A program made the translations under genes and the position numbers. Of a stretch of DNA of 64,000 nt, positions 1-12,453 are shown piece by piece. The notes under the pieces were generated by a model. That model worked only from the letters and a program-made list of their open reading frames with translations, searched no databases and had not been told where the DNA came from. The stretch lies in assembly GCA_002418215.1 (NCBI GenBank), contig DIDQ01000119.1, positions 1 to 64,000 on the forward strand. Reading direction: 5' to 3'. Each line of letters opens with the position of its first letter. Position 1 is the stretch's first letter. This DNA is from Anaerolineales bacterium UBA5796 (lineage in GTDB: Bacteria; Chloroflexota; Anaerolineae; Anaerolineales; Villigracilaceae).

Positions 1-296
1 ATATCAAAGAGCCAATAAAATTTGCGCAAATCGCCGTTTACAAGCGAAAAAGTACGTTTTTGTGTATTAAGCATGTAAAGGTTGAACCCTGGATGACCAA
101 CACTATCCGGGCTTTGTCACCCTGAAGGAGCGCTTTTCAGCGACTGAAGGGTCTCCTGGACGGTCGCAGAGATGCTCATCTGCACTTGCAGCGCAGGCGC
201 AAGTGTCGCTCCGCTCAGCATGACCTCATTGGGCCTGGTGCGAATAGAGCCGGTTTTGTTCACACTTTTACTGTCCAATACGTAACTATTCAGGCT

Positions 297-413
297 GTCA
301 TTGCGAGGCGGTTGTTGCCGAAGCCCTGGCCTGACGCCAGGACAGGCAATCTCCCGCTAAATGGGCAAACGGGAGACTGCTTCACTCGCAAAGACCGCTC
401 GTTCGCAGTGACA
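297..413 (+). repeat. Nested-palindrome repeat element, family 1, copy A (TGTCATTGCGAGG ... GCAATCTCC ... GGGAGACTGCTTC ... GCAGTGACA). A partial second copy lies at ~186-235.
   Basis: Terminal inverted repeats TGTCATTGCGAGG / GCAGTGACA and the internal pair GCAATCTCC / GGGAGACTGCTTC recur at 20910, 21719 and 39302. Confidence 0.7.
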
Positions 414-841
414 TCGCTATTTTTGAGTATATGGCTGAATAGATACACCAATACAAGATTAGCGGATTCCATCCCGCACTTTGGTGCGCGCGCAAAATAT
501 GTTGCGGCGGCTGCGGCGGCAGCCCGAAAATTCAATGCAAATGTCTATGCCGGAGAGACAACTGTCTATTGTCCCGGCTTCCCATAACCGGTACAATTTT
601 GACATCAATGTTTCCTTTGCCGGGACGTTGACGGGGGAGACAAGGGGGCGGGTGCATTTCAGTCCCTTTGGGAGGCGCGGCGCACCAAAGGGTTCGAGCA
701 GGCAGGTGGGAGGGATTGGAATGCAACACAGGCAAAATGGATCGGTGGGAAAGCCATCCAGGAGTTTCACGAGTGCAAATCGCTGCACCTCGCAGCGCAC
801 AAACAATACACTACACTAACGATTGAAAGGAGCACATCACT

Positions 842-1243
842 ATGGCACGAAAAATTCAGGCCTGGGTAGAGTTCGGGCCGCGCCTGGAACCGAGGGAACC
901 GCTGGATGCGGAGGGGCTGATCCTGCGCATTGTGCAGGCCACCAACCAGAGCCGGGGCAGCGTCAAAGCCATCCTCGACGAACTGGACAGCCAGCTCGAA
1001 ATTGCCCTGCAGGAAGGCACCATCGTGCAACTTCCCAACGGCATGCACTTCCAGCCGATCGGCAAGCGCAACGGCAAGATAGAAATCAGGGTACGCATCA
1101 ACCCGGACCTGCTCAAGCGCATCAATGCCATCTTCCGCGGCAAATGGCGCAACCCGGAGAATATCGGCAAGACCGAGGATGAGATCTTCGACCAGTGGGA
1201 TGCGGCCCATCCCGGCGACCCGGTTGACAGGAGCAGCCTCTAA
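842..1243 (+). CDS. Hypothetical protein (133 aa)
   Basis: Clean ORF with an AAGGAG Shine-Dalgarno 8 nt upstream. A strong intrinsic terminator follows it. No recognisable motifs. Confidence 0.6.
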   Translation: MARKIQAWVEFGPRLEPREPLDAEGLILRIVQATNQSRGSVKAILDELDSQLEIALQEGTIVQLPNGMHFQPIGKRNGKIEIRVRINPDLLKRINAIFRGKWRNPENIGKTEDEIFDQWDAAHPGDPVDRSSL

Positions 1244-1272
1244 AATACAGCCACTCGATACCAAACCAGGAC

Positions 1273-1308
1273 CAGCCTGACCGTGCAATCAGGCTGGTTG
1301 TTTTTTTT
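1273..1308 (+). terminator. Rho-independent terminator
   Basis: Stem CAGCCTGA ccgtgcaa TCAGGCTGG followed by a T9 run. Confidence 0.8.
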
Positions 1309-1313
1309 ACAGA

Positions 1314-1437
1314 TCGAACTAGTTCGATCTTGTTGTCGAACTAGTTCGATCGCGACATTGAACTAGTTCGATCGCGCTGTCGAACTAGTTCGAGTCACGA
1401 GTCGAACTAGTTCGATTCGCAGATCGAGCAAGCTCGA
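1314..1437. repeat. Array of six 14-bp perfect palindromes TCGAACTAGTTCGA (the last copy is degenerate, TCGAGCAAGCTCGA) at an exact 22-bp period
   Basis: Copies start at 1314, 1336, 1358, 1380, 1402 and 1424, so the spacing is constant at 22 bp. Confidence 0.85.
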
Positions 1438-1538
1438 CCGCGCCGTTAGGGTTATTCATTGCATCGTTGTTCCAAAAACGCAGGTGCTTCTGATTGGGCG
1501 TGACATGGGTAGATTCCACAACAAATGCCCCCACCCGG

Positions 1539-1643
1539 CCTCCCCCGAAAATCCAAAGTGCGGAATTTTCGGGGGAGGGGCAGAGCCTGTGTCCGCAAGT
1601 CAACAAAGCCTCCCCCATTTTCAAGAGCGGAAAATGGGGGAGG
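1539..1643. repeat. Two related G-rich hairpins (CCTCCCCCGAAAAT...ATTTTCGGGGGAGG and CCTCCCCCATTTT...AAAATGGGGGAGG)
   Basis: Stems of 13-14 bp at 1539-1578 and 1609-1643. They sit between the palindrome array and the 3' end of vsr. Confidence 0.7.
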
Positions 1644-1733
1644 TTGGAGGGGGCGGGGTTGGCCGACTCGCGGTGTTTACTACATTGGCGAAAAATCTTC
1701 TGGTCTCCTTGTAAATATCAATAAGCATTAGCA

Positions 1734-2198
1734 TTAACTAGACCTTGTAACACCTCTGATTTCGCTGCTGGAAGTATTTTCAACCAACCAGGTAGCAATT
1801 TTTTTTATTAATTCATCGAAATCCAGTTTTTTTCTTCCCTTTAAGGCGCATTCCCAAATTATAAGGACTTTCCATCCCAATTTTTTCAATTCAGCAATAT
1901 TTTTTATGTCTCGCTCTTGGTTTCCTGTAATTTTCCCCCCCCAAAATTCCGGACGAGTTGACGGCCACTTAAATAAATGGCAATCATGCCCATGCCAGAA
2001 ACATCCATTGATTTGAATTACTGCCCTATATTTTGGAAATACCAGATCGGGCTTCCCCGGGAGAGATGCAACATGTAAGCGATATCGAAATCCTCTTTTG
2101 TGGATGGCTGTGCGTATTCTGATTTCCGGTTTTGTATCTTTCCCCTGAATTCCTGACATCATTTTACTTCTGGTTTCAGGTGAAACTACATCGGTCAT
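1734..2198 (-). CDS. vsr: Very-short-patch-repair endonuclease (Vsr)
   Basis: About 150 aa with a conserved FWHGH motif and the overall Vsr pattern (KPD/E ... F.HGC.WH). It lies in an operon with a Dcm methyltransferase. Confidence 0.85.
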   Translation of the reverse strand: MTDVVSPETRSKMMSGIQGKDTKPEIRIRTAIHKRGFRYRLHVASLPGKPDLVFPKYRAVIQINGCFWHGHDCHLFKWPSTRPEFWGGKITGNQERDIKNIAELKKLGWKVLIIWECALKGRKKLDFDELIKKIATWLVENTSSSEIRGVTRSS

Positions 2199-2206
2199 AT
2201 TTCAAC

Positions 2207-3532
2207 TTACTCCAGCAACATTAACATGCCTGGCCTGGATGTTTGGCGAGCAAGCCAGGCTTGCAAATCTGTAAAAGCCTGTCCCCGCATACGCAAGAAT
2301 GCCTTTTTATTTTTTATTTTTTCTAGTTCAATAGTTATCACATGTCGAGCGCTGAAAAAGAAATAATATTCGCCAGCCGGCAACGGATCGTCTAAAAATA
2401 CAGGCCCAAACTTTAAAATAAATTCAGCCTTCTTGATCTTCGCTTTTTCTGTGGCAGGTATAAGGATACCGGCTACAAAACGAGCAATACGAATATTATT
2501 CTGGGAATGATCACAAGAAGCATTTACTTCCACTATTACAGATTTGGAAACAGGTTCCAGTGCAGCCCTATAGGCATCTTTTTGATTTTCCTTGCAATTC
2601 ATAAAATCATCTAAAACTTCTTCAATTGAAGGAACATGTGCCCATTTTTGCGATAAGTCTAAATATATATTCCCGGCATAAAATCGCTTCGTTTCATCTA
2701 CAGCCAAATGTAACATAGTATTTAGTTTTGCTTTGGCGCGTATATCTTTGCTTGAAGACGAATTCATAATTTCAGCAGAGTACGGAGAAAGAGATTTATT
2801 TACTTTGGAGTTATTACTTTCCATTCGATCAGAATGTAATGGATTTAGAGAACCATACAGAGCATTCAAACAAAGATTGGCGTCCAGTTGTTTCCCAGCC
2901 TCAGCTTCTGCCATCGCATGTAACAATTGCAGGAATTGGGTATTCCAGGCACTGCGCCATTCCGCTAGGCTTTTTGTATCATTGCTTGTAAGAGCAGATA
3001 ACGCATTTGTGACCATTGTAGCTGCTTTATGGCTATTTTCCTCCCATACTTGAAGAAGTAATAAAGGACTAAAGCTGTTCAATTCAGTTTGGATTTTGGA
3101 AAGGATAAGTTTTATGTTCAGGTTGCCTTTGATATCTTTACATTCTGTTTTGGTTAAACGAGAAACAAAGACTGGGTTTGGAATATTGGGTTCTGTAAAC
3201 ATAGTTTCTTCAAACAATTCTTGCAGTTCAGGATGTTTTGTCCATACAAGGACTCCGTATGGACCGTTATCCGGTCGCAATATCCCCATCACATACATAA
3301 GCAAAGTTGACACTTTTGATTTGTCTGAAGAAACTCCACCATCTAGCAAATCCATATCCAGGATTGCTAATCTTACACCAACCAATCTTTGACTTTTTAG
3401 TGGAAGTGCAGTTCTGGTTCCATCAAAATATGTGGAAGAAATGCCTAGTTTTGAAAGTCCTTTGAGCATTGGAAGGGCTTCCTTTTCATCATCATCAACA
3501 ACGATAACCCTTGTTCCACTTAATCCATTCAT
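2207..3532 (-). CDS. Receiver (REC)-domain protein with a ~300-aa C-terminal domain of unknown function
   Basis: The N-terminus reads RVIVVDDDE (acidic pocket), LAILDMDL (candidate phospho-acceptor Asp) and TKHP (Lys-Pro). The C-terminal 300 aa carry no recognisable motif. The ORF overlaps its neighbours by 4 nt, so it is co-operonic. Confidence 0.6.
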   Translation of the reverse strand: MNGLSGTRVIVVDDDEKEALPMLKGLSKLGISSTYFDGTRTALPLKSQRLVGVRLAILDMDLLDGGVSSDKSKVSTLLMYVMGILRPDNGPYGVLVWTKHPELQELFEETMFTEPNIPNPVFVSRLTKTECKDIKGNLNIKLILSKIQTELNSFSPLLLLQVWEENSHKAATMVTNALSALTSNDTKSLAEWRSAWNTQFLQLLHAMAEAEAGKQLDANLCLNALYGSLNPLHSDRMESNNSKVNKSLSPYSAEIMNSSSSKDIRAKAKLNTMLHLAVDETKRFYAGNIYLDLSQKWAHVPSIEEVLDDFMNCKENQKDAYRAALEPVSKSVIVEVNASCDHSQNNIRIARFVAGILIPATEKAKIKKAEFILKFGPVFLDDPLPAGEYYFFFSARHVITIELEKIKNKKAFLRMRGQAFTDLQAWLARQTSRPGMLMLLE

Positions 3533-5679
3533 TTTTTATTTCCTCCAAAGATCAATGCAACGACGGCTCCGTTAAATTCGTCAGGAAGAGAAATCTCTCC
3601 AATTTCTGGAAAAACTAACCGCCCCCCTTGAGCTTTCATAACCTGATCAGCAAGGTGCAATCCAAGTCCCATGCCATCCGGCTTTCTGCTAATAAATGGT
3701 TCAATTAAGTACTCAGGAGGATCAACAAACCCTGGGCCATTATCTGCAATCACAATTGCTGGTCCTTGGTCAAATTCCTTAGTCATTCCGATATAGATTT
3801 TCTTCTTATCAACTTGTTCTCCCCATTTGTTATCCAGCCACCAAATCGAATTATCAATTATATTCATCAGAGTTGATATCGTAAGTCGTTTGCTGCAATT
3901 GGTTTCAAAATTACCTTGCCTTGTATCGGAAATTAATTTTATGTTGTGGTTCTTAAGTCTTAACTCGGTGTTAAATACTGCCTGAGAGATCATAGTTCCT
4001 GCTTTTTCACGAGTTATCCCCGATCTTCTTATAAGGCTGGCAAAACCTTCGACTAAATCTGCCAAATGCTTTGCTAAATTTCTAATGCGGGGGCTGGCCT
4101 TTTCTTCTTGCACAGCTCTTGAAAGTTCATCTATCCCTTTTTCTACTTCATGAATAACTATTGAAAGACTTAACCCGGCACTTGCGCTTGTCAAAAAACG
4201 ATCTCGGATAAGAATAAAGTCAGATTCAATCCTGTTAATGTATGGTCCAAGTTCACTTGTTAGTTTTTTCCTTTCTATAAGGTTGCGTAACTCGGAAAGG
4301 TCTTCAATAACCGGTTCTTTGATTTTTTTACTACTGTATGCATTCCGAATACGTGTCTTGTCTTTGTTACGCTCGGCTTGTATTTGAACAACCGCTTCGG
4401 TAACTGCGTCCTTGAAAGCTCGAAATGCTTCATTGTCTACAAAACCTTCTCGATTTGTTTTTTCAATTAAACCTGAACTGGCCTCAATATCTAAGGACGC
4501 AGCCCCAACTACCAAGTTGTTACTTATTCGCTGTGTTGGCACATTCACTCGTTTTCCGCCTAAATTCAGCCAATCATTGCCAGGTTCTCCATAATCATAA
4601 ACCCGCATCCCGGCTCTATACACTCGTATTCCGCCAGACTCGTCAAGAAAATCTTTCAGCCCTTGTTTATCCGTTACTCCAAGTGATAATATTTTAGGCT
4701 CACGGTCAAAAATATAAAGATCAATATGGATTGGCCCAACTTCTCTTAGAAGAGTTTTGCTTGAAATATCCTTCGGTAAATCGAGCTTTACATTTTGAAC
4801 ATTTCGAGCATCGATTTTGTCTAGCATGGCAGGCAATGGGACAAATGAATAATTATAAAAAAGCTTAACAGTTTGAGTGTTATCCGGGTCTGCCTCTATA
4901 TCGCAGTTTGCACGAAATAGAGAATATTCCAAAACTGTTTCCACCGTCAACAATTTATCCAACCAATCTTTATTCTCAGTAAGCACGAGTTCAGTATTGA
5001 ATTCCCCGATTTCGTCAAAAGGTGAACAAATTGACATTACCGCACGTGCAAGTTCCCGAACCATGCCTCGGTTCCATACATTGCGTAGATTCTCAATTTC
5101 GATTTTTGTTCCTGTCTGACTCCCGGTAAAAACTTGCGGTTCTCGTTCTACAACTACAACGGGAACATCTTCTAAATATTTATGTTTTGTAAAATCGTTC
5201 CAATCTATCTCAACAAAAACTTCTGGCTGTTTTTTTTTGCGTGTGACTAGTCTGACCTTCAATCCCAATTTATGAGCAGCAAACCGGCCAACACCTTTCT
5301 CGCCAAGTGGCAAGCGGCCATATTTTGGCGTCCTTTCATCATTCTCTCGTTGTTTAGCTTTATAGTCAGTTCCGGGCTCAAGCCATACGTGTGTAACAGT
5401 ATCAAAATCCATACCAATCCCTGTATCTTCCACCGTAATCAAACCCTTATTCTGGTCAGTCAAGTTTGACATTGTTACTTTTACACCAGGGGAGTCCGCA
5501 TCATACGCATTTTTAACTAACTCAAACACCGCAATTCCGGGATCCTTGATAAGCTGATCACCTAATAGTAACAATAATCTAGCTCGTGGGCGGAAAGTAA
5601 ACTCATTTGTCATGGCGCTCTTCCCATCTTGATGAGGCATTTTATTATCTTCATCCATTTTTAACCAAGCTCTTAACAA
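3529..5679 (-). CDS. Dual GHKL-ATPase protein. The N-terminus is a MORC/MutL-like HATPase_c_3 domain; the C-terminal half is a histidine-kinase-like H-box plus HATPase_c domain.
   Basis: The N-terminal Bergerat-fold motifs are ELVKNAYDA (N-box) and DTGIGMD (G1). The middle region has IVIHEVEKGIDEL, a candidate H-box. The C-terminal motifs are LMNIIDNSIWW (N), IADNGPGF (G1) and GMGLGLHLA (G2). The true start may be an internal Met. Confidence 0.65.
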   Translation of the reverse strand: MLRAWLKMDEDNKMPHQDGKSAMTNEFTFRPRARLLLLLGDQLIKDPGIAVFELVKNAYDADSPGVKVTMSNLTDQNKGLITVEDTGIGMDFDTVTHVWLEPGTDYKAKQRENDERTPKYGRLPLGEKGVGRFAAHKLGLKVRLVTRKKKQPEVFVEIDWNDFTKHKYLEDVPVVVVEREPQVFTGSQTGTKIEIENLRNVWNRGMVRELARAVMSICSPFDEIGEFNTELVLTENKDWLDKLLTVETVLEYSLFRANCDIEADPDNTQTVKLFYNYSFVPLPAMLDKIDARNVQNVKLDLPKDISSKTLLREVGPIHIDLYIFDREPKILSLGVTDKQGLKDFLDESGGIRVYRAGMRVYDYGEPGNDWLNLGGKRVNVPTQRISNNLVVGAASLDIEASSGLIEKTNREGFVDNEAFRAFKDAVTEAVVQIQAERNKDKTRIRNAYSSKKIKEPVIEDLSELRNLIERKKLTSELGPYINRIESDFILIRDRFLTSASAGLSLSIVIHEVEKGIDELSRAVQEEKASPRIRNLAKHLADLVEGFASLIRRSGITREKAGTMISQAVFNTELRLKNHNIKLISDTRQGNFETNCSKRLTISTLMNIIDNSIWWLDNKWGEQVDKKKIYIGMTKEFDQGPAIVIADNGPGFVDPPEYLIEPFISRKPDGMGLGLHLADQVMKAQGGRLVFPEIGEISLPDEFNGAVVALIFGGNKK

Positions 5680-6679
5680 CCTTTGTCATCACTGGAGGAC
5701 ATACACCATTCCCCATCAACTTAATTCGATCACGTCTGGTTAATCCAGGAATACTGTCTAACTGAAAATCTGGTGTAAAGCCCATCGCCAACTTTAATTC
5801 TTCCGGTTGTAGCATCCTCATCACATGTCCATTTTCACTTGGCGTTACATAGGCAAAGCGATCAAGTGTAGTAATTGTGCCTAATGGCTCCTCAATACTT
5901 TGCCAGCCTTTATTTTTTTTGCGTCCGGAACCATAATACACGAGCAAGAATGAAGTGTTATTGCCAAGAACTGAAATTGCCCGTTCAGCCGAATGAATTG
6001 TATTTTCTGCTCTGCCCGGTTTTCTCAAAGGAGTGAATTTATATTTTCCAGAATTATCAATAATTGTTGAGGCTGGTTTGGTAATGACATATTCGGCGGC
6101 TGGTTCCGCTGCTTTTCCAGTCAAGGAACACAATAAAAACAAACGCTCTCGTGACTGAGGAACACCCAGATTTTTAGCATTAATTATCGTTTTTTTTACA
6201 AAATATTTCAATTCCCATAAATTTTCAAGCAAGTCCTTAAACTTATCCCATGATTCAAATTCAGTCACATTTTCAATAACCATCCATCGTGGTCTAAACA
6301 CTCTGGCAAATCGAACAGCCTCAAATGCTGTCATTTTGCTTTCTTCGTCTCTTTCAGCATTCCCCTTTGCCTTGGAATGATTTGTACATTCGGGGGATGC
6401 CAGGATTAAATCAATATTACCGATTGACGATTTAAATTGGCGAATCTCTTCGTCTGTTAATTTTTGCAAGTCTGTCTGGAATACCTCAGCTTTAGGGAAA
6501 TTTGCCTTATATGTTTTTATTGCCAAATCCCACATATCAAATCCAGCAACAACATCAACACCAGCTTTTGTTGCTCCAAAGCTGCTTCCACCTGCACCGC
6601 AGAACAAGTCAATTGCTTTGATTTTTGTCTCATACATAAGCTTATCCTGTAGTTTCCTTAAAGCATAAACACTTGCCAA
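5651..6679 (-). CDS. dcm: DNA (cytosine-5)-methyltransferase (Dcm family)
   Basis: Motif I is DLFCGAGG. Motif IV is PC, read as ASPECTNHS. Motif VI is ENV. Motif VIII is QSRERLF. Motif X is GNGV. Confidence 0.9.
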   Translation of the reverse strand: MASVYALRKLQDKLMYETKIKAIDLFCGAGGSSFGATKAGVDVVAGFDMWDLAIKTYKANFPKAEVFQTDLQKLTDEEIRQFKSSIGNIDLILASPECTNHSKAKGNAERDEESKMTAFEAVRFARVFRPRWMVIENVTEFESWDKFKDLLENLWELKYFVKKTIINAKNLGVPQSRERLFLLCSLTGKAAEPAAEYVITKPASTIIDNSGKYKFTPLRKPGRAENTIHSAERAISVLGNNTSFLLVYYGSGRKKNKGWQSIEEPLGTITTLDRFAYVTPSENGHVMRMLQPEELKLAMGFTPDFQLDSIPGLTRRDRIKLMGNGVCPPVMTKVVKSLVKNG

Positions 6680-7118
6680 CCTCTAATCGTTTTTTGCTTG
6701 TTGGCACATACCACGCGTTCATTCTTTTATCCCAGGCGCGTATTTGTAAAAATTGTTCCCATGAAAATTGATAGAGAGCATTAAGAGTATAGTCGGGAGC
6801 CAATATCACGATCAATAGGTATTCAAAAAGCTGTTTATCCGGGTTTTGTTCATCAGGGTAAATAGTTCCTGTTTTACTACCCTTTTGAATAGTTTTGATT
6901 GAAAATCTTTCCCCATTTCGTGAAAGCGCATCCACATTTTTTGATCCTGGTGCGGATGCCGTTAAATTAGATAGTCCAGGTGTATTACGAAAATAATTTA
7001 TTGCAGCAGCTTCTCCGATTTCACCCACTGAAAAAGAAAGACCTCGGGTGCGCATTTCCCGCTCGACTTCAATTCGAAGTGATATTAGTACATCATCGTT
7101 CAGGGTTGTTATATCCAC
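6642..7118 (-). CDS. Hypothetical protein (158 aa); first gene of the island operon
   Basis: AT-rich ORF overlapping the dcm start by 38 nt. It has a weak PD-(D/E)xK-like pattern (VDAL ... ERFSIK) that could not be confirmed. Confidence 0.45.
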   Translation of the reverse strand: MDITTLNDDVLISLRIEVEREMRTRGLSFSVGEIGEAAAINYFRNTPGLSNLTASAPGSKNVDALSRNGERFSIKTIQKGSKTGTIYPDEQNPDKQLFEYLLIVILAPDYTLNALYQFSWEQFLQIRAWDKRMNAWYVPTSKKRLEVGKCLCFKETTG

Positions 7119-7341
7119 GTATGTTCCTGGCCTGAAATGTTTTATCTATTAAACCACATCATTTATGTGATTTACCAGCCACATCCAAATTTTATTCTAA
7201 TAAACTGTATCAAACAATAAAAAATTTTTGCAAATTCGAAATTAGGGTTCCGGAGTTTTCTTTTACCCAATTCCCGAATATCGAATAGCTACTCCCCGCT
7301 CCCCTCTCCCCCAATTCTCTAACACTCCTCCAACCTGCCTC

Positions 7342-7370
7342 TGTTATAATTTTCCCTTCGAAAGGGAAAA
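7342..7370 (+). promoter_or_regulatory. Extended -10 promoter (TGTTATAAT) followed by a leader hairpin TTCCCTTCGAAAGGGAA, upstream of secA
   Basis: TGnTATAAT sits 28 nt upstream of the ATG. A perfect 7-bp stem lies between them. There is no Shine-Dalgarno; the sequence just before the ATG is CACCTCC. Confidence 0.5.
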
Positions 7371-7377
7371 CACCTCC

Positions 7378-10300
7378 ATGCTTCAAAAATTTGTCAATAT
7401 TTTCGGGGGCGACCCCAATAAAAAAGAAATCAACAAGATCAGCGAGATCGTCGAGCAGGTCAACGCCTTCGAGCCGCAGTTCGAAGAACTCAGCAACGAC
7501 GCCTTGCGCGCCAAAACGGACGAGTTCCGGGCGTTGTTGAAGTCTGAGTTGGAAGGCGTCGAGAACGAAGACGAGCGCAAGAAAATCGAGCAGGCCGTCC
7601 TCGACGAGCTCCTGCCCGAGGCCTACGCCGTCGTCCGCGAAGTCTCGAAACGGACCCTGGGCATGCGTCCCTTCGACGTGCAGATGATCGGCGGGATCGT
7701 GTTGCACCGGGGCCAGATCGCCGAGATGCGCACCGGCGAAGGCAAGACCCTGGTCGCCACCCTGCCGATCTACCTCAACGCCCTCACCGGGCGCGGCGTC
7801 CACCTGGTCACGGTCAACGATTACCTGGCCCGGCGTGACGCCCGCTGGATGGCCCCCATCTACCACTTCCTCGGCCTGTCAGTGGGCGTGCTGCAAATGG
7901 CTGCCGCCACCGAGAACGGCAAGAAAGCCTTCATCTACGATCCCGAAAAAGAATCCACCCAGGAAGACCAGCACCAGTTGCGCCTGGTGGACCGCCGCCG
8001 GGCCTACGAAGCCGACATCACTTACGGCACCAACGCCGAGTTCGGCTTCGATTACCTACGCGACAACATGACCATGCGCCTCGAAGACCGCGTTCAGCGG
8101 GGCCACTATTACTGCATCATTGACGAAGTGGACAACGTGCTGATAGACGAGGCCCGCACCCCGCTCATCATCTCCGGCCCAGCCTCGGGCGACCTGGAAT
8201 GGTACGGGCGCATGGCCCAGATCGTCAAGCAACTCAAGCCTGAAGATTACGAACTGAGCGAGAAAGACCGCAGCATCTCGCTGACCGAGATAGGCGTGGC
8301 CCACGTCGAACAACTGCTCGGCCAGCCGCTGATGGACCCCGACCGGCCCGAAGACCTGAACCCGGAGCAGGCCCGGCTGATGGGCTACCTCGAACAGGCC
8401 CTGCGCGCCCAGTACCTGTTCCACCGAAACAAGGATTACCTCGTCCAGGCTGGCAAGGTGGTCATCGTGGATACCTTCACCGGCCGCCTGATGCCCGGAC
8501 GCCGCTGGAGCGACGGCCTGCACCAGGCTGTGGAAGCCAAGGAAGGTGTGCGGGTGGAGCCTGAGAACATCACCTACGCCACCATTACTCTGCAAAACTA
8601 TTACCGCATGTACGAAAAACTCTCCGGCATGACCGGCACCGCCCTGACCGAGGCCGAAGAGTTCAGCAAGATCTACAAACTCGAAGTCCTGCCCATCCCC
8701 ACCAACCTGGAACACAACGCCACCCGTCCCGGCTCGCCGCTGGTGGAGCGCAAGGACAAGGACGAAGACGGCTACGAGTATTCGTTCTTCATGCCAAGAG
8801 ACGCCACCTCCGATAACGGGCCGGTGCTTTGGCGGCGCAAGGATTACCCCGACGTGATCTTCCGCTCGCAGGAGGCCAAGCTGCGCAACATCGTGCGCGA
8901 GGTGGTCTTCAACCACGCACTTGGGCGTCCCCTGCTGATCGGCACCACCTCGGTCGAAAGTTCCGAGCGCCTGTCGGAGCGGCTGCGGGCCGAACCGGTG
9001 CGCCGCCTGATGCAGGTCCTGCTTATCCGGGATGCCTGGATGGGGGCCAACGGCCGCGAAGAAGACGGGCGGCTCATCCCTGAACTTGTACCGTTGAACG
9101 CGCCCCTCGAACGGATCCAGGCCCCGGACCTGCGCCAGTTCGCCCGTCCGCTGGAGTTATCTCTCAATCCCGAGGACCAGGCCAACCTGTCGCGGTTGAT
9201 CGAACTGCTGGGGTTGTCGGCGGAGAACCATGACCGGCTGAAGTCGGTGCTCCAGGGCGGAGTCCCGCATCAAGTTCTCAACGCCCGCAAACATACTGAG
9301 GAAAGCCAGATCATCGCCGGGGCGGGCGCGTTCGGGGCAGTGACCATCGCTACCAACATGGCCGGTCGCGGGGTGGACATCAAGCTCGGCGGCGAGATGG
9401 CCGAGGAGATCATTGCCATCGTCAACCGGGTGCTGAAACGCACCGAGGCCGAAGACCCCTACGAGATGAGCATGGAGGAGCGCCGTCAGGCCCTGCTCAA
9501 GCTCGACCCCTCGGAATACGGCATCTACGAAGCCGAGATCAAACACTTTTTGCAATACTTCGAAGACATGGCCCAGGTGAAAGCCCTGGGCGGCCTGCAC
9601 GTGATCGGCTCGGAACGCCACGAAGCCCGACGGATTGACAACCAGCTGCGCGGCCGCGCCGCCCGCCAGGGCGACCCCGGCTCGTCGCGCTTCTACCTCT
9701 CGCTCGAAGACGACCTGATGCGGCTCTTCGGCGGGCAGCAGGTCAGCGGCTTGATGGACCGCCTGAAAGTGGACGAGTCGCTGCCGCTGGAGGCAAAGCT
9801 GGTCAGTAACATCGTCGAAGGCTCGCAGCACCGGGTGGAAGGGGCCAACTTCGACGTCCGCAAGCACCTGCTCGAATACGACGACGTGCTCAACTCGCAG
9901 CGCGAACGCATCTATTCGCAGCGCGACCGGGTCTTCACCAAAGACGACCTGACCGACGACGTGGCCGGCATGCTCCAGGCCGAGGTCGAGACCCGCGTCC
10001 CGGCTGCCCTGGCCGACGAGGAAGGCCCATGGAAGCTGCTGGCCTGGCTCGAACAGACCCAGCCGACCTTCAACACCGCCGACGGGCTGTTCCCGTCTTA
10101 CACCTATCGCCTGCTGCTGGACGAGATCGAGGACGGCAGCCGCGAACAGATCCTGTCCCTGGTGCGCCGGGCCGTCGAGACCGAGAACGGGCACATCTGG
10201 CGCGCCGTCGCTGCCACGATAGACCGCACCGCTGAAAGCCTCGACAGCCAGATGGATGAACGCCGGGAGGCCCTGGAGACCTTCCTGGAGGCCCTGGGCG

Positions 10301-11391
10301 ACCGCGATGAGACCGACACCCGCCGCCCACAGGAACTCCTCGAGGAATTGCAGTCCCTCGCCCGCGTGCCCCTGCGCCTGAACAACGAACAACTGCGCCA
10401 ACTGGCGGACGACCCCGAAGGCCTTGCAGACGATATCGAAGAACAGGTCGAACAGGCGCTCACCGCAATTGCCGTCTCCCGCCTGCTGTCCACACTCGAA
10501 TACCGCCTGGGCGAATCGCTCAGCCTCGACAAGAACATCCTGGCCCGCCTCGAATGGGACGAATTGGTCGGGAAGATCACCGGCGCGGCCCGCCGGGCGC
10601 TCGAGGGCCGCCTCGAAATGCTGGTGAGCCAGGCCGGGCGCGACCTCGACATCCTGCTCCAGCGCGGCCGGCCGCAGAGCGACGATGAACGCATCCGCCT
10701 GCTGGGGTCGCTTTCCCAGGGGTCCCGCACCGCCTTCGACGCCAAAACCCACCGCCAGGTCCGGCAATCCTTCGCCCGCTTCAATTATCTCTTCCTGGCC
10801 GCAAAATTGCTGGAAAACCGCAGCGATGGAGCCGTGGCCGAGGACGTGCTGGAGCATCTCGAAATAGCCCAGGAGACGCTGGGACGCGCCTGGGGGACCA
10901 GCGAATACGCCCGCCTGTCCCGGAACGCCGCATCCCTCGCGGACTTTGGGCCGGCTGCCGCTATTTTCACCGAGTCGCGTCGGGAGGCATCTCCCGCCTC
11001 CCTGTCTGACGAGGAGCGCGAGACCCTGATGGAGTCGCTCAGCCGCGCCGTCCAGACCCAGATCTACCGCCAGGTGCTGCTCAACGCCATCACCGAACTC
11101 TGGGTGGAGTACCTGACCAAGGTCGAAGCCCTGCGGGTTGCCATCGGGCTGGAGGCTTACGCCCAGCGTGACCCGCTGGTACAATACAAGACCCAGGCCT
11201 CCGAAATGTTCCAGAACCTGCTGGGCGATATCCGCTCAGCGGTGGTCAGCCGCATCTTCCTGTACCAGCCCCGGGCTTACGCCGCCGCCCGCATCGTCGA
11301 AAGCGAAGAAACCGTCCTGTCCCAGCCCCAGCCGGTCACGGCCGCGGCCCAGGACGGCGGCAAAAAGAAAAAGAAGCGCAAACGACATTAG
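7378..11391 (+). CDS. secA: Preprotein translocase ATPase SecA; unusually long at 1337 aa, with insertions in NBD2 and a Lys/Arg-rich C-terminal tail that has no zinc finger
   Basis: It carries the Walker A motif MRTGEGKTLVA, the DEAD-like motif DEVDNVLIDEARTPLIIS and the conserved SecA motif RGRAARQGDPGSSRFYLSLEDDL. The tail ends GGKKKKKRKRH with no cysteines. Confidence 0.95.
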   Translation: MLQKFVNIFGGDPNKKEINKISEIVEQVNAFEPQFEELSNDALRAKTDEFRALLKSELEGVENEDERKKIEQAVLDELLPEAYAVVREVSKRTLGMRPFDVQMIGGIVLHRGQIAEMRTGEGKTLVATLPIYLNALTGRGVHLVTVNDYLARRDARWMAPIYHFLGLSVGVLQMAAATENGKKAFIYDPEKESTQEDQHQLRLVDRRRAYEADITYGTNAEFGFDYLRDNMTMRLEDRVQRGHYYCIIDEVDNVLIDEARTPLIISGPASGDLEWYGRMAQIVKQLKPEDYELSEKDRSISLTEIGVAHVEQLLGQPLMDPDRPEDLNPEQARLMGYLEQALRAQYLFHRNKDYLVQAGKVVIVDTFTGRLMPGRRWSDGLHQAVEAKEGVRVEPENITYATITLQNYYRMYEKLSGMTGTALTEAEEFSKIYKLEVLPIPTNLEHNATRPGSPLVERKDKDEDGYEYSFFMPRDATSDNGPVLWRRKDYPDVIFRSQEAKLRNIVREVVFNHALGRPLLIGTTSVESSERLSERLRAEPVRRLMQVLLIRDAWMGANGREEDGRLIPELVPLNAPLERIQAPDLRQFARPLELSLNPEDQANLSRLIELLGLSAENHDRLKSVLQGGVPHQVLNARKHTEESQIIAGAGAFGAVTIATNMAGRGVDIKLGGEMAEEIIAIVNRVLKRTEAEDPYEMSMEERRQALLKLDPSEYGIYEAEIKHFLQYFEDMAQVKALGGLHVIGSERHEARRIDNQLRGRAARQGDPGSSRFYLSLEDDLMRLFGGQQVSGLMDRLKVDESLPLEAKLVSNIVEGSQHRVEGANFDVRKHLLEYDDVLNSQRERIYSQRDRVFTKDDLTDDVAGMLQAEVETRVPAALADEEGPWKLLAWLEQTQPTFNTADGLFPSYTYRLLLDEIEDGSREQILSLVRRAVETENGHIWRAVAATIDRTAESLDSQMDERREALETFLEALGDRDETDTRRPQELLEELQSLARVPLRLNNEQLRQLADDPEGLADDIEEQVEQALTAIAVSRLLSTLEYRLGESLSLDKNILARLEWDELVGKITGAARRALEGRLEMLVSQAGRDLDILLQRGRPQSDDERIRLLGSLSQGSRTAFDAKTHRQVRQSFARFNYLFLAAKLLENRSDGAVAEDVLEHLEIAQETLGRAWGTSEYARLSRNAASLADFGPAAAIFTESRREASPASLSDEERETLMESLSRAVQTQIYRQVLLNAITELWVEYLTKVEALRVAIGLEAYAQRDPLVQYKTQASEMFQNLLGDIRSAVVSRIFLYQPRAYAAARIVESEETVLSQPQPVTAAAQDGGKKKKKRKRH

Positions 11392-11406
11392 AAATCCGGT
11401 GTCCAG

Positions 11407-12453
11407 TTGAAAAAAGACAAGACAACGGCCTCTCTCAATATTTATAAGGTATTGCCCAAGGTCGAATTGCACCGCCACCTGGAGGGATCGCTGCGTATTG
11501 CCACCATGCTGGAGATCGCCGAACAGCACGGCGTCACCGTCCCGCCCAGCATCGTGGACTTGAGCAGCCTGGTCCAGGTGCAAGATGAAGAGCCGTTCAC
11601 TTTCACCAATTTCCTCGAAAAATTCAAAACCCTGCGCCTGTTCTACCGCTCGCCGGAGGTGATAGACCGCATCACCCGCGAAGCCATCGAAGACGCGGCC
11701 CGCGACAACGTGCGCTACATGGAACTGCGCTTCACGCCGGTGGCCCTCAGCCGGGCCGAGGGTTTCCCGCTCCACGACGTGATGGCCTGGGTCTGCAAGT
11801 CCACCCGCAGGGCCGCCGACGAATTCGGCATCACCGTGCGCCTGATCGCCTCGGTCAACCGCCACGAGAGTGTCGAACTGGCCGAGCAGGTGGCCTGGCT
11901 GGCCGCCGGTCACATCGAAGACGGCATCCTGGGCCTCGACCTGGCCGGGAACGAAGCCGAGTATCCCGCCAGGCCGTTCGAAGGCATCTTCAAGGAGGCC
12001 CGCCAATCCGGCCTGAAGACCACCGTCCACGCCGGGGAGTGGGGCGGCGCGCAAAATGTGGGCGAGGCCATCCAGGTGTTCGACGCCGACCGCATCGGCC
12101 ATGGCGTGCGCGTCCTCGAAGACCCGTCGGTGGCGGCGCTGGCCCGCGAGCGCGGTGTCGTGTTCGAGGTCTGCATCACCAGCAACCTCCAGTCCGGCGT
12201 GGTGTCCGCCGTCAGCGCCCACCCCCTGGCAGCCATGCTTGGGTCCGGGCTGAACGCCACCCTCAACACCGACGACCCCAGCGTCTCGCGCATCACCCTG
12301 ACCCACGAGTTCAAGCTGGCCGCCGAAGACCTGGGCCTGCCGTTCGAGGCGCTCAAGGAACGGGTGCTGGCCGCGGCCAGGGCCTCCTTCCTGCCGGATG
12401 CCGAGCGTATGCTGCTGGTCGCAGAAGTGGAAAGCAAATTGGCTCGCTTATGA
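11407..12453 (+). CDS. add: Adenosine deaminase
   Basis: Contains ELHRHLEGS, SVNRHES and HAGE metal-ligand motifs. The start is TTG. Confidence 0.85.
   Translation: MKKDKTTASLNIYKVLPKVELHRHLEGSLRIATMLEIAEQHGVTVPPSIVDLSSLVQVQDEEPFTFTNFLEKFKTLRLFYRSPEVIDRITREAIEDAARDNVRYMELRFTPVALSRAEGFPLHDVMAWVCKSTRRAADEFGITVRLIASVNRHESVELAEQVAWLAAGHIEDGILGLDLAGNEAEYPARPFEGIFKEARQSGLKTTVHAGEWGGAQNVGEAIQVFDADRIGHGVRVLEDPSVAALARERGVVFEVCITSNLQSGVVSAVSAHPLAAMLGSGLNATLNTDDPSVSRITLTHEFKLAAEDLGLPFEALKERVLAAARASFLPDAERMLLVAEVESKLARL

What the first reader, a model, noticed from the sequence alone, without database searches (positions are those of the whole stretch)
1734..7118. AT-rich five-gene island that couples Dcm and Vsr to a GHKL-ATPase/histidine-kinase protein and a receiver-domain protein
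Five tightly overlapping minus-strand genes are involved. In transcription order they are the 158-aa unknown protein, Dcm, the 716-aa double-GHKL protein, the 441-aa REC protein, and Vsr. The overlaps are 38, 29, 4 and 9 nt. GC content here is about 40%, against about 65% elsewhere. No integrase or transposase is present. The island sits directly in front of secA.

Dcm plus Vsr is the classic core of a C5-methylation module, but no canonical restriction endonuclease is present. Instead the cassette carries an N-terminal MORC/MutL-like ATPase, a histidine-kinase-like H-box plus catalytic domain, and a cognate receiver-domain protein with an unknown effector domain. MutL/MORC-type ATPases are known to occur in restriction-modification contexts (prokaryotic MORC/paraMORC). 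I am not aware of a described system where such an ATPase is fused to a phosphorelay module.

I therefore flag this as a candidate signalling-regulated restriction or defence system.
Basis: partly seen in the sequence, partly recalled or inferred. Interest (0 to 1): 0.85.

Follow-up and report, generated by a model that had tools for sequence, protein, structure and literature searches.

The report
Kinase-gated methylation defence cassette
This AT-rich five-gene island is a horizontally acquired member of an already described bacterial cassette that links a cytosine methylase and its repair enzyme to a MORC-like sensor kinase and a receiver protein. The island's "unknown" first gene is in fact a homologue of nucleases that cut methylated DNA.

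Summary
Five co-oriented minus-strand genes at 1734-7118 have 39.5% GC against 60.5% for the rest of the window.

The reading needs three corrections:
- The 158-aa "unknown" protein is a BisI-superfamily homologue, the type IIM methyl-dependent restriction enzymes (PADLOC E=4e-50). A nuclease-family gene is therefore present.
- Two of the stated overlaps come from taking the longest ORF, and the fourth is an 8-nt gap.
- The architecture is not undescribed. Bellieny-Rabelo et al. 2021 defined this pair with an upstream C5 methylase and a downstream Vsr. A 2025 preprint validated "Ambrosia", which has a methylase, an HSP90-like kinase, a receiver and a type IV nuclease. Its kinase AbrB is homologous to this one (hhalign 99.9%).

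New observations:
- In 27 non-redundant loci, the kinase is present in 27, this Dcm in 24, a T:G repair gene in 24, and an m5C-dependent-type nuclease gene in 20. Twelve of those nucleases are MspJI-like and eight are BisI-like. This gives a context for the MspJI-methylase linkage that was called unexplained in 2010.

Verdict: a new member of a known, still mechanistically open kind.

The parts
6642..7118 (-). First gene: a 158-aa BisI-superfamily homologue (type IIM, m5C-dependent restriction enzymes). It has a PD-(D/E)xK-type core with E36, D63, S73-I-K75 and E99.
   Evidence: PADLOC mREase_II models: PDLC03213 3.8e-50, PDLC03205 1e-34, PDLC03204 2e-24. Pfam DUF6998 9e-5, below cutoff. PDB Eco15I 8q5m: E 0.05 with the single sequence and 0.01 with the family profile, over residues 5-139, with vDA aligned to iDA and sIK aligned to QIK. 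Catalytic motif of the BisI family from PMC11347163. D63, S73, K75 and E99 are invariant in 21 homologues. The start codon is GTG, and the public call has the same length.
5651..6637 (-). C5 cytosine DNA methyltransferase (Dcm), 328 aa from the ATG at 6637. The longest ORF runs to 6679.
   Evidence: PF00145 6e-41 and TIGR00675 1.5e-36. Best PADLOC model is DrmMII PDLC02654, 7.6e-97 over its full length. Motifs FCGAGG, ASPEC(T), ENV, QSRER and GNGV are present. The unusual motif IV, ASPECT, is conserved in all 34 cassette Dcm copies examined.
3529..5613 (-). Soluble sensor kinase, 694 aa. N-terminal MORC/paraMORC-type GHKL ATPase (about 5110-5535). Conserved middle region with EKTNREGF (4441-4464). 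H-box His488 (4150-4152). C-terminal kinase ATP-binding domain (about 3613-4011).
   Evidence: HATPase_c_3 3.1e-17 and HATPase_c 4.6e-13 with two stretches. NCBIfam: BbrUII/HgiDII restriction enzyme over the N-terminal 160 residues only, plus many histidine kinases over the C-terminus. PDB kinases. Invariant motifs in 21 homologues down to 40% identity. Homologous to Ambrosia AbrB, hhalign 99.94%, E 1.5e-36. Start codon per the public call.
2207..3532 (-). Receiver-effector protein, 441 aa. Receiver domain (residues 1 to about 150; 3083-3532) with phospho-acceptor D59 (3356-3358). Helical bundle (about 153-280). MazF/CcdB-like beta-barrel domain (about 285-431; 2240-2680) with invariant E335, C340-D341, Q344 and R433.
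1734..2198 (-). Vsr very-short-patch (T:G mismatch) repair endonuclease, 154 aa.
   Evidence: Pfam Vsr 1.3e-30. TIGR00632 2e-42, above cutoff. PADLOC Vsr 2e-45.
1609..1643 (-). Terminator-like hairpin downstream of vsr, the likely 3' end of the operon.
   Evidence: 14-bp stem with 8 GC pairs on the minus strand. Perfect inverted repeat I16. This is a consensus match only.
7119..7377 (.). Divergent intergenic region between the cassette and secA, and the right-hand GC transition. The cassette promoter presumably lies here.
   Evidence: GC rises from 0.36 to 0.56 across 6751-7750. Sequence read. No promoter was called by the scan.

Best explanation
The island is a horizontally acquired, operon-like defence cassette of the class defined by a paraMORC-type soluble sensor kinase and a cognate receiver protein. 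That class is called HEF_HK / Response_reg_2 in the 2021 description, and its validated relative is Ambrosia. Here the pair is wired to a C5 methylase, a nuclease of a methyl-dependent family, and a T:G repair enzyme.

Proposed working:
1. The kinase's N-terminal MORC/MutL-like ATPase clamp senses an infection-linked state of DNA. This step is inferred.
2. That drives autophosphorylation on His488 and transfer to Asp59 of the receiver protein. The motifs are shown; the chemistry is inferred, supported by the loss of defence in Ambrosia AbrC D60A and AbrB N40A.
3. The phosphorylated receiver protein releases the output. The output is licensing of the Dcm plus m5C-dependent nuclease pair, so that DNA methylated by Dcm is cut ("methylate and cut", the Ambrosia working model). 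Activation of the receiver protein's own MazF/CcdB-like toxin-fold domain may act together with this or instead of it.
4. Vsr, or an HhH-GPD glycosylase in sister cassettes, repairs the T:G mismatches that deamination of 5-methylcytosine leaves in the host genome.
For: **Family membership**
- The receiver protein family aligns over its full length with the E. coli member that sits next to a GHKL kinase, a dcm and an HNH gene (hhalign 99.7%).
- Plasmid relatives in Agrobacterium and Burkholderia are also paired with the kinase, Vsr and Dcm.
- The architecture and neighbourhood match PMC8011034.

**Link to a validated system**
- The N-terminal 399 residues of AbrB match the kinase alignment at hhalign 99.94%, E 1.5e-36.
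- In Ambrosia all five genes are needed for defence. D60A in the receiver and N40A in the GHKL motif NAYDADA abolish it. The methylase and nuclease are induced on infection.

**Conserved synteny**
- In 27 non-redundant loci the kinase is present in 27, this Dcm family in 24, a T:G repair gene in 24 (18 Vsr, 6 HhH-GPD), and an m5C-dependent-type nuclease gene in 20 (12 MspJI/AspBHI-like, 8 BisI-like).
- The MspJI-like gene of locus L005 hits MspJI itself at 8.6e-64.
- Starting instead from the BisI-like gene, 3 of 4 loci again carry the kinase and a receiver protein.
- Two unrelated nuclease families with the same substrate class occupy the same slot beside a methylase that makes that substrate.

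**Intact catalytic motifs**
- Both GHKL modules, the H-box, the receiver quintet and Dcm all keep their motifs.

**Effector fold**

**Genomic context**
- Other loci sit among defence or mobile-element genes: AbiE, HepT/MNT, a DISARM-like set, relaxase, prophage genes.
Against: - Nothing here is experimental for this cassette.
- The Ambrosia receiver AbrC (209 aa) is not homologous to this 441-aa protein beyond the receiver fold. Its methylase is N6-adenine and its nuclease is HNH, so transferring its mechanism is an analogy.
- This receiver protein has no detectable DNA-binding output domain. The transcriptional gating shown for Ambrosia may therefore not apply.
- A T:G repair gene in 24 of 27 loci implies that the host genome regularly carries this Dcm's 5-methylcytosine. 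That fits constitutive self-marking better than methylation only on infection.
- Four to seven loci lack any recognised methyl-dependent nuclease (for example L043, a clean Dcm-kinase-receiver-Vsr set). The nuclease is therefore an accessory, not core.
- The 158-aa family has an invariant Ser where BisI enzymes have the metal-binding Gln. Its similarity to a solved BisI enzyme is weak (E 0.01). Its activity and methyl dependence are inferred.
- The H-box is assigned by position and invariance. It is not covered by any sequence match to known kinases.
- The Pfam copy used never reported PF19191 or PF19192 for any member.
Confidence: 0.5

Rival explanations
1. A self-marking R-M-like system with a signalling effector. 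Dcm methylates the host genome all the time as the self mark, which explains Vsr. The MORC-like kinase detects unmethylated (foreign) DNA, or loss of methylation after the cassette is lost. It then phosphorylates the receiver protein, whose MazF/CcdB-like domain arrests the cell, giving abortive infection or post-segregational killing. The BisI-like or MspJI-like nuclease has a specificity orthogonal to Dcm and is a complementary add-on against phages with methylated DNA.
For: - A T:G repair gene is present in 24 of 27 loci.
- Minimal cassettes without a methyl-dependent nuclease exist, for example L043.
- The same BisI-like plus Dcm pair is attached to helicase or DISARM-like modules in L068 and L069. 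Dcm's best PADLOC model is the DISARM methylase DrmMII. In DISARM the methylase protects self (established knowledge).
- Orthogonal coexistence is the explanation proposed for LpnPI and M.LpnPI in PMC2938202. The authors inferred it from an active M.LpnPI; they did not test LpnPI on GGNCC-methylated DNA.
- The receiver protein has a toxin-like fold.
- The N-terminal GHKL resembles that of the BbrUII/HgiDII restriction enzymes.
Against: - It does not explain why the nuclease slot is filled, in 20 of 27 loci, by two unrelated families that both need exactly the modification type Dcm makes.
- In Ambrosia, methylation by AbrA did not protect phage from the system.
- M.MspJI expressed alone showed no activity.
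Confidence: 0.3
2. An ordinary regulatory or repair module, not a defence effector. The kinase-receiver pair only tunes expression of a neighbouring R-M system, as speculated in 2021. Alternatively, the MutL-like ATPase simply assists Vsr in very-short-patch repair, as E. coli MutL does.
For: - PMC8011034 proposes regulation of R-M systems.
- The functional link between MutL and Vsr is cited in PMC2292703.
- The Ambrosia data show transcriptional induction.
Against: - The receiver protein has no helix-turn-helix or other DNA-binding output by Pfam, NCBIfam or fold search.
- The kinase-receiver pair stays linked when Vsr is replaced by a glycosylase (6 loci) or is absent (3 loci).
- In Ambrosia both the kinase and the receiver are essential for defence.
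Confidence: 0.1
3. A chance juxtaposition in a defence island. On this reading an orphan Dcm-Vsr pair, a solitary methyl-dependent nuclease and an unrelated two-component pair merely lie side by side.
For: Defence genes cluster in islands, and gene order varies. The nuclease can be upstream, divergent or downstream, and Vsr can lie on either side.
Against: - The same gene families recur together in dozens of unrelated contigs from several phyla, and in one contig attributed to an archaeon, with overlapping or near-abutting reading frames.
- One 6.2-kb contig carries essentially just these five genes.
Confidence: 0.03

Closest known systems
HEF_HK / Response_reg_2 two-component-like pair linked to C5 methylases and Vsr (Bellieny-Rabelo, Pretorius and Moleleki 2021, Genome Biol Evol, PMC8011034; Pfam PF19191 and PF19192)
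   Same: - A soluble kinase built as HATPase_c_3, then an H-box (His followed by Glu), then HATPase_c.
- An adjacent protein of about 440 aa whose only recognisable part is a divergent receiver domain with DD, D, T and K.
- A C5 methylase upstream and Vsr directly downstream.
- Spread by lateral transfer.
- An E. coli member and plasmid members are homologous to the window's proteins.
   Different: - That work is purely computational. It reports no effector domain for the receiver protein and does not mention methyl-dependent nucleases.
- It was drawn mainly from Proteobacteria.
- The Pfam copy used here did not report PF19191 or PF19192 on any member. Membership in those two Pfam families is therefore not shown directly.
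Ambrosia defence system (bioRxiv 10.1101/2025.09.30.679545): AbrR (XRE regulator), AbrA (N6-adenine methylase), AbrB (kinase / HSP90-like ATPase), AbrC (receiver), AbrD (type IV HNH nuclease)
   Same: - The kinase is homologous: hhalign 99.94% over the N-terminal about 390 residues, with the same NAYDADA motif that was mutated (N40A).
- The logic of the parts is the same: methylase, kinase, receiver, and a nuclease of a modification-dependent type, in one cluster.
- The phospho-acceptor Asp is at nearly the same position (D60 against D59).
- Sister locus L071 even has an XRE gene and a canonical receiver protein.
   Different: - The methylase here is C5-cytosine, not N6-adenine.
- The nuclease is BisI-like PD-(D/E)xK (or MspJI-like in sister loci), not HNH.
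- The receiver protein is 441 aa with a helical bundle and a MazF/CcdB-like domain. It is not homologous to the 209-aa AbrC, which is said to carry a winged helix.
- There is no XRE gene in the window.
- A T:G repair gene is added.
- Ambrosia is reported only in Gammaproteobacteria.
MspJI and BisI families of m5C-dependent restriction enzymes (type IIM/IV), with their puzzling neighbouring C5 methylase and vsr genes
   Same: - The window's first gene belongs to the BisI superfamily by PADLOC models.
- Sister cassettes carry close MspJI homologues (8.6e-64 to PDB 4F0P).
- The MspJI locus itself was described as nuclease plus vsr plus C5 methylase. About half of the MspJI family members lie next to a methylase gene, almost all of them predicted 5mC-specific, and the authors called this unexplained (PMC2938202).
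- BisI lies next to an inactive C5 methylase (PMC4926085).
   Different: - Those papers treat the nucleases as stand-alone enzymes and do not mention the kinase or the receiver protein.
- The 158-aa family has SxK where BisI enzymes have QxK.
- It is only distantly similar to the solved Eco15I.
paraMORC GHKL ATPases of restriction-modification operons (Iyer, Abhiman and Aravind 2008, PMC2292703) and the GHKL-containing BbrUII/HgiDII restriction enzymes (NCBIfam NF050001)
   Same: - An N-terminal GHKL ATPase with MutL/MORC-type motifs and a conserved region after it.
- Neighbourhoods with cytosine methylases, Vsr and HNH nucleases.
- NF050001 matches residues 51-212 (numbered on the 716-aa longest ORF) at 3e-20.
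   Different: - The score of 72 bits is far below the NF050001 cutoff of 550, and only the ATPase part matches.
- This protein continues into a histidine-kinase core rather than a nuclease domain.
- No receiver partner was described in 2008.
Detocs, and Pgl/BREX (recalled from general knowledge, not tested here)
   Same: - Detocs is a defence system built on a histidine kinase and receiver-effector proteins.
- Pgl couples a methylase to a kinase and restricts DNA that carries the system's own modification.
   Different: - No PADLOC model of any such system matched the kinase or the receiver protein.
- The sensor, effector and methylase families are different.

Membership tests
HEF_HK / Response_reg_2 cassette (PMC8011034) | Kinase-like protein with N-terminal HATPase_c_3, an H-box with a core His followed by an acidic residue, and a C-terminal HATPase_c; soluble | tested here: met
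   Both Pfam domains are present. H488-E489 is invariant in 21 homologues, together with N, G1 and G2 boxes. Transmembrane segments were not formally predicted.
HEF_HK / Response_reg_2 cassette (PMC8011034) | Adjacent gene for a protein with a divergent receiver domain (DD, D, T, K) and no other known domain | tested here: met
HEF_HK / Response_reg_2 cassette (PMC8011034) | Match to the Pfam models PF19191 and PF19192 themselves | tested here: not met
   Neither model was reported for the window proteins, 30 homologues, the plasmid relatives or the E. coli member, even at E up to 10. I cannot tell whether the models are narrow or absent from this copy. Homology to an E. coli member next to the kinase, dcm and HNH is shown instead.
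HEF_HK / Response_reg_2 cassette (PMC8011034) | C5 methylase upstream and Vsr downstream of the pair | tested here: met
   True in the window. In 27 comparable loci, Dcm is present in 24 and Vsr in 18.
Ambrosia (10.1101/2025.09.30.679545) | AbrB-type HSP90-like / histidine-kinase ATPase | tested here: met
   hhalign 99.94%, E 1.5e-36, 29% identity over 371 columns, using the first 399 residues of AbrB from the preprint's Table S1. The C-terminal half of AbrB was not available.
Ambrosia (10.1101/2025.09.30.679545) | AbrC-type receiver protein (209 aa; the authors report a winged helix) | tested here: not met
   hhalign probability 0.08% against the 441-aa family. Only the stretch around the acceptor Asp aligns.
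Ambrosia (10.1101/2025.09.30.679545) | N6-adenine methylase AbrA, type IV HNH nuclease AbrD and XRE regulator AbrR | tested here: not met
   The window has a C5 methylase, a PD-(D/E)xK BisI-like protein and no XRE gene.
Ambrosia (10.1101/2025.09.30.679545) | Anti-phage activity that needs every gene | not testable with these tools
   This needs plaque assays.
BisI family of m5C-dependent restriction enzymes | PD-(D/E)xK core with a helix Glu, a catalytic Asp and a QxK motif (PMC11347163) | tested here: inconclusive
   E36, D63 and K75 align with Eco15I and are invariant. However, the Gln is replaced by an invariant Ser. The similarity to Eco15I is weak (E 0.01-0.05), whereas the PADLOC mREase_II models match strongly.
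BisI family of m5C-dependent restriction enzymes | Cleavage only of GCNGC-type sites that carry several 5-methylcytosines | not testable with these tools
   This needs purified protein and methylated substrates.
MazF/CcdB/Kid toxin superfamily (C-terminal domain of the 441-aa protein) | SH3-like beta-barrel toxin fold | tested here: inconclusive
MazF/CcdB/Kid toxin superfamily (C-terminal domain of the 441-aa protein) | Sequence-level relatedness or known catalytic residues | tested here: not met
   The profile search of PDB finds no toxin.
Plain type II restriction-modification system | A nuclease blocked by the cognate methylation, paired with the methylase | tested here: not met
   The only nuclease-family gene belongs to methyl-dependent families. 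The match to the BbrUII/HgiDII restriction enzyme covers only the ATPase part, at 72 bits against a cutoff of 550.

The most novel reading that the evidence does not exclude
The cassette is an inducible "write-then-cut" immune system. It also accounts for why MspJI- and BisI-family enzymes, both of which have members sold as laboratory reagents, so often sit next to C5 methylases. On this reading a MORC-like DNA clamp fused to a histidine kinase detects infection. It signals by His-Asp phosphotransfer to a receiver protein whose MazF/CcdB-like domain acts as the switch or as a toxin. That unleashes the Dcm, so that invading DNA is marked with 5-methylcytosine and then destroyed by the m5C-dependent nuclease. 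Vsr or a glycosylase cleans up the mutagenic traces in survivors. This would be a phosphorelay-controlled epigenetic self/non-self system with a new class of receiver output domain.
Probability: 0.2. Interest if true: 0.8.

Novelty: new member of a known kind. Interest (0 to 1): 0.55.

Why it matters
The cassette family is large. The receiver protein alone has about 1,900 clusters at 50% identity, and the kinase search returned 4,950 hits among the 8,000 candidates scored. It spans many phyla, but only a distant relative (Ambrosia) has been tested.

This analysis adds three things:
- The output domain of the receiver protein has a toxin-like fold rather than a DNA-binding fold.
- Methyl-dependent nucleases of two unrelated families are regular members of the cassette. 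This gives a functional context to the MspJI/BisI-methylase-vsr linkage that enzymologists flagged in 2010 and left open.
- T:G repair is supplied interchangeably by Vsr or by an HhH-GPD glycosylase.

If the kinase really reads DNA state through a MORC-like clamp, this would also be a tractable bacterial model for how MORC ATPases couple to DNA methylation.

Tried and rejected
- **Plain type II R-M:** rejected. The only restriction-enzyme-family match on the kinase covers its ATPase domain at 72 bits against a cutoff of 550. The 158-aa protein belongs to methyl-dependent families.
- **DISARM or Druantia membership:** rejected for the window, despite Dcm's best PADLOC hits (DrmMII, DruM). No helicase, DUF1998 or PLD genes are present. 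One sister locus does lie beside DISARM-like genes.
- **Pfam PF19191 and PF19192:** never reported, even at E up to 10.
- **Sequence-level link of the receiver protein's C-terminus to MazF or CcdB:** none found.
- **Sequence search of the 441-aa protein against PDB:** nothing.
- **Genome-contig scan with the full-length alignment:** largely wasted.
- **First metagenome attempt with 19 sequences:** failed for lack of a conserved stretch. The second attempt, with 8 closer sequences, worked.
- **Viral contigs:** no relative found.
- **Mobility signatures:** no tRNA in 1-12000, and no flanking direct repeats in 1000-7600.
- **Rfam on 1-8000:** nothing.
- **Promoter scan:** counts were no higher than in shuffled sequence, and no site was called in the 7119-7377 spacer.
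- **Cluster look-up:** The host is therefore only inferred to be a high-GC bacterium, possibly Chloroflexota, because several close homologues come from Anaerolineae.
- **Supplements of PMC8011034:** not held.
- **The V. cholerae WASA paper:** it mentions paraMORC but concerns other systems.

Full report
**1. What is in the sequence**

| Gene | Coordinates | Size |
|---|---|---|
| Vsr | 1734-2198 | 154 aa |
| Receiver protein | 2207-3532 | 441 aa |
| Double-GHKL protein | 3529-5679 (longest ORF) | 716 aa (694 aa from the ATG at 5613) |
| Dcm | 5651-6679 (longest ORF) | 342 aa (328 aa from the ATG at 6637) |
| BisI-like protein | 6642-7118 | 158 aa |

GC is 39.5% over 1734-7118 and 60.5% over the rest of the window, with sharp transitions near 1650-1750 and 7150-7350.

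The same contig exists in public data. Its gene calls start Dcm at the ATG at 6637 (328 aa) and the ATPase at the ATG at 5613 (694 aa). The real spacings, in transcription order, are a 4-nt gap, a 37-nt gap, a 4-nt overlap and an 8-nt gap.

The genes are still packed like an operon. A strong hairpin at 1609-1643 on the minus strand lies about 90 nt after vsr. There is no tRNA in 1-12000, no flanking direct repeat in 1000-7600, and none of the five island genes is an integrase or transposase. A second public contig of 6.2 kb carries essentially just these five genes.

**2. The individual proteins**

*Vsr and Dcm.* Both are unambiguous. Dcm has all catalytic motifs. Its motif IV is unusual, ASPECT, and is conserved in all 34 cassette copies examined.

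*The kinase.*
- The N-terminal GHKL module is of the MORC/MutL/Hsp90 type, with motifs ELVKNAYDA, DTGIGM and GEKGVGRF.
- A strongly conserved middle region follows (YGEPGNDWLNLG, EKTNREGF).
- Then comes an invariant His488-Glu489, followed by a kinase ATP-binding domain with N, G1 and G2 boxes.
- All of these persist in relatives down to 40% identity.
- The H-box is assigned by position and invariance only. The sequence matches to known kinases begin just after it.

*The 441-aa protein.*
- It has no hit in Pfam, NCBIfam or PADLOC.
- D14, D59 and K128 are invariant. D13 and T98 are nearly so. This is a phosphorylatable receiver domain.
- I modelled residues 153-441 separately (pLDDT 83). After a helical bundle, the last ~150 residues form a beta-barrel.
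- There is no sequence-level support. I treat this as a fold resemblance, not membership.
- Invariant polar residues (E335, C340-D341, Q344, R433) suggest a functional site.

*The 158-aa protein.*
- It is not unknown. It matches four PADLOC models of type II methyl-directed restriction enzymes; the best is 3.8e-50 over nearly the whole protein.
- It aligns over its full length, though weakly, with the BisI-family enzyme Eco15I (E 0.05 with the single sequence, 0.01 with the family profile).
- The catalytic Asp and Lys of the BisI family (PMC11347163) line up with invariant D63 and K75.
- The metal-binding Gln is an invariant Ser here. Activity is therefore plausible but unproven.

**3. Conservation elsewhere**

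I collected loci in four ways:
- around homologues of the receiver protein;
- by a metagenome scan keyed on its C-terminal domain, which gave 52 loci;
- from plasmids;
- from one E. coli chromosome.

I classified the neighbouring genes with profile searches. After collapsing near-identical copies and requiring enough flanking sequence, 27 loci remain.

| Feature | Loci (of 27) |
|---|---|
| Kinase | 27 |
| This Dcm family | 24 |
| T:G repair gene | 24 (18 Vsr, 6 HhH-GPD glycosylase) |
| Gene of an m5C-dependent nuclease family | 20 (12 MspJI/AspBHI-like, 8 BisI-like) |

- In the 3 loci without this Dcm family, the public annotations show another C5 methylase gene nearby.
- The MspJI-like gene of L005 hits MspJI itself at 8.6e-64.
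- At least one locus (L043) is a clean Dcm-kinase-receiver-Vsr set flanked by housekeeping genes. The nuclease is therefore a frequent accessory, not core.
- Starting from the BisI-like gene instead, 3 of 4 loci again contain the kinase and a receiver protein. These include one contig attributed to a Nitrososphaeraceae archaeon and one locus lying beside DISARM-like genes.
- The fourth locus joins BisI-like plus Dcm to helicases only.
- The receiver protein family has 1,925 clusters at 50% identity, nearly all full length.

**4. What is already known**

- Bellieny-Rabelo et al. 2021 (PMC8011034) described exactly this pair from 644 regions. They reported 91.6% linkage, a C5 methylase upstream, Vsr downstream and descent from paraMORC ATPases. 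[quoted passage not shown]
- They reported no effector domain and no methyl-dependent nucleases.
- The Pfam copy available here never reports those two models. However, an E. coli neighbour of the kinase, dcm and an HNH gene aligns over its full length with the window's receiver family (hhalign 99.7%).
- A 2025 preprint validated Ambrosia in Pseudomonas. It has an XRE regulator, an N6-adenine methylase, a kinase / HSP90-like ATPase (AbrB), a receiver (AbrC) and a type IV HNH nuclease.
  - Every gene is needed for defence.
  - AbrC D60A and AbrB N40A abolish defence.
  - The methylase and nuclease are induced on infection.
  - The authors propose that the system targets its own modification.
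- The first 399 residues of AbrB are homologous to the window's kinase (hhalign 99.94%, E 1.5e-36). AbrC is not homologous to the 441-aa protein.
- In 2010 the discoverers of MspJI noted that about half of its family lies next to a methylase gene, almost all predicted 5mC-specific, and that some also keep a vsr gene. They called this unusual and unexplained, and found M.MspJI inactive when expressed alone (PMC2938202). BisI also sits next to an inactive C5 methylase.

**5. How it most likely works**

*Shown*
- The parts and their intact motifs.
- The conserved linkage.
- The homology of the sensor kinase to one that is required for defence.

*Inferred*
- The MORC-like clamp senses a DNA state.
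- His488 passes phosphate to Asp59.
- The phosphorylated receiver protein releases the output.

For the output I see two live models.

*Model A, methylate and cut.* Dcm is licensed on infection and the m5C-dependent nuclease cuts the marked DNA. The following favour it:
- the Ambrosia data;
- the inactivity of M.MspJI on its own;
- two unrelated nuclease families, both needing the very modification Dcm makes, filling the same slot.

*Model B, self-marking.* Dcm is constitutive, the kinase-receiver pair responds to unmethylated DNA through a toxin-like domain, and the nuclease is orthogonal. The following favour it:
- the near-universal T:G repair gene;
- cassettes that lack a nuclease;
- the DISARM-like contexts.

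I rank A slightly ahead of B and give the class assignment itself high confidence. A purely regulatory or repair role is unlikely, and so is chance adjacency.

**6. Verdict**

It missed the identity of the first gene, and it overstated novelty.

The locus is a new member of a published class that has been tested only in a distant relative. The observations added here are the toxin-like fold of the receiver output, the regular membership of MspJI/BisI-type nucleases, and the interchangeable T:G repair genes. These make it a worthwhile experimental target, but not a categorically new system.

Noticed in passing
window 1312-1446: Six copies of the 14-bp palindrome TCGAACTAGTTCGA at a regular 22-nt spacing. 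They lie between the terminator of the HU-like gene (842-1243) and the island. They look like an array of protein-binding sites.
   Followed up: no
window 1539-1578 and 1609-1643: Two perfect hairpins with 14-bp stems that share the core CCTCCCCC...GGGGGAGG. The second is terminator-like on the minus strand after vsr.
   Followed up: partly
window 7378-11391: SecA is 1,337 aa, far longer than the usual ~900 aa, and ends in a Lys-rich tail.
   Followed up: no
L068:1-14498: The kinase, receiver protein, Dcm, BisI-like gene and HhH-GPD gene lie between a 939-aa N6/N4 methylase and a 1,371-aa helicase, an MZB/DUF1998 gene and a PLD gene. That is a DISARM-like set.
   Followed up: no
L071:6290-11624: This locus reads Vsr, XRE regulator, BisI-like, Dcm, kinase, then a 358-aa protein with a canonical Pfam receiver domain that is unrelated to the 441-aa family (hhalign below 1%). 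The receiver partner has been replaced by a non-orthologous one, and the XRE gene gives an Ambrosia-like layout.
   Followed up: partly
L015:2979-11152 (E. coli ES7 chromosome): An island carries an IS1-disrupted kinase, a 486-aa receiver-family protein, a second dcm and an HNH nuclease. It is inserted into the chromosomal dcm gene next to yedJ.
   Followed up: partly
L003:8329-9081 and five other non-redundant loci (L028, L030, L032, L035, L038): An HhH-GPD glycosylase replaces Vsr in the cassette. It sits either after the receiver gene or between Dcm and the kinase.
   Followed up: partly
L029:376-1620: A 414-aa protein with no Pfam hit occupies the slot upstream of Vsr-Dcm where other cassettes carry the methyl-dependent nuclease. 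It may be a third nuclease family.
   Followed up: no
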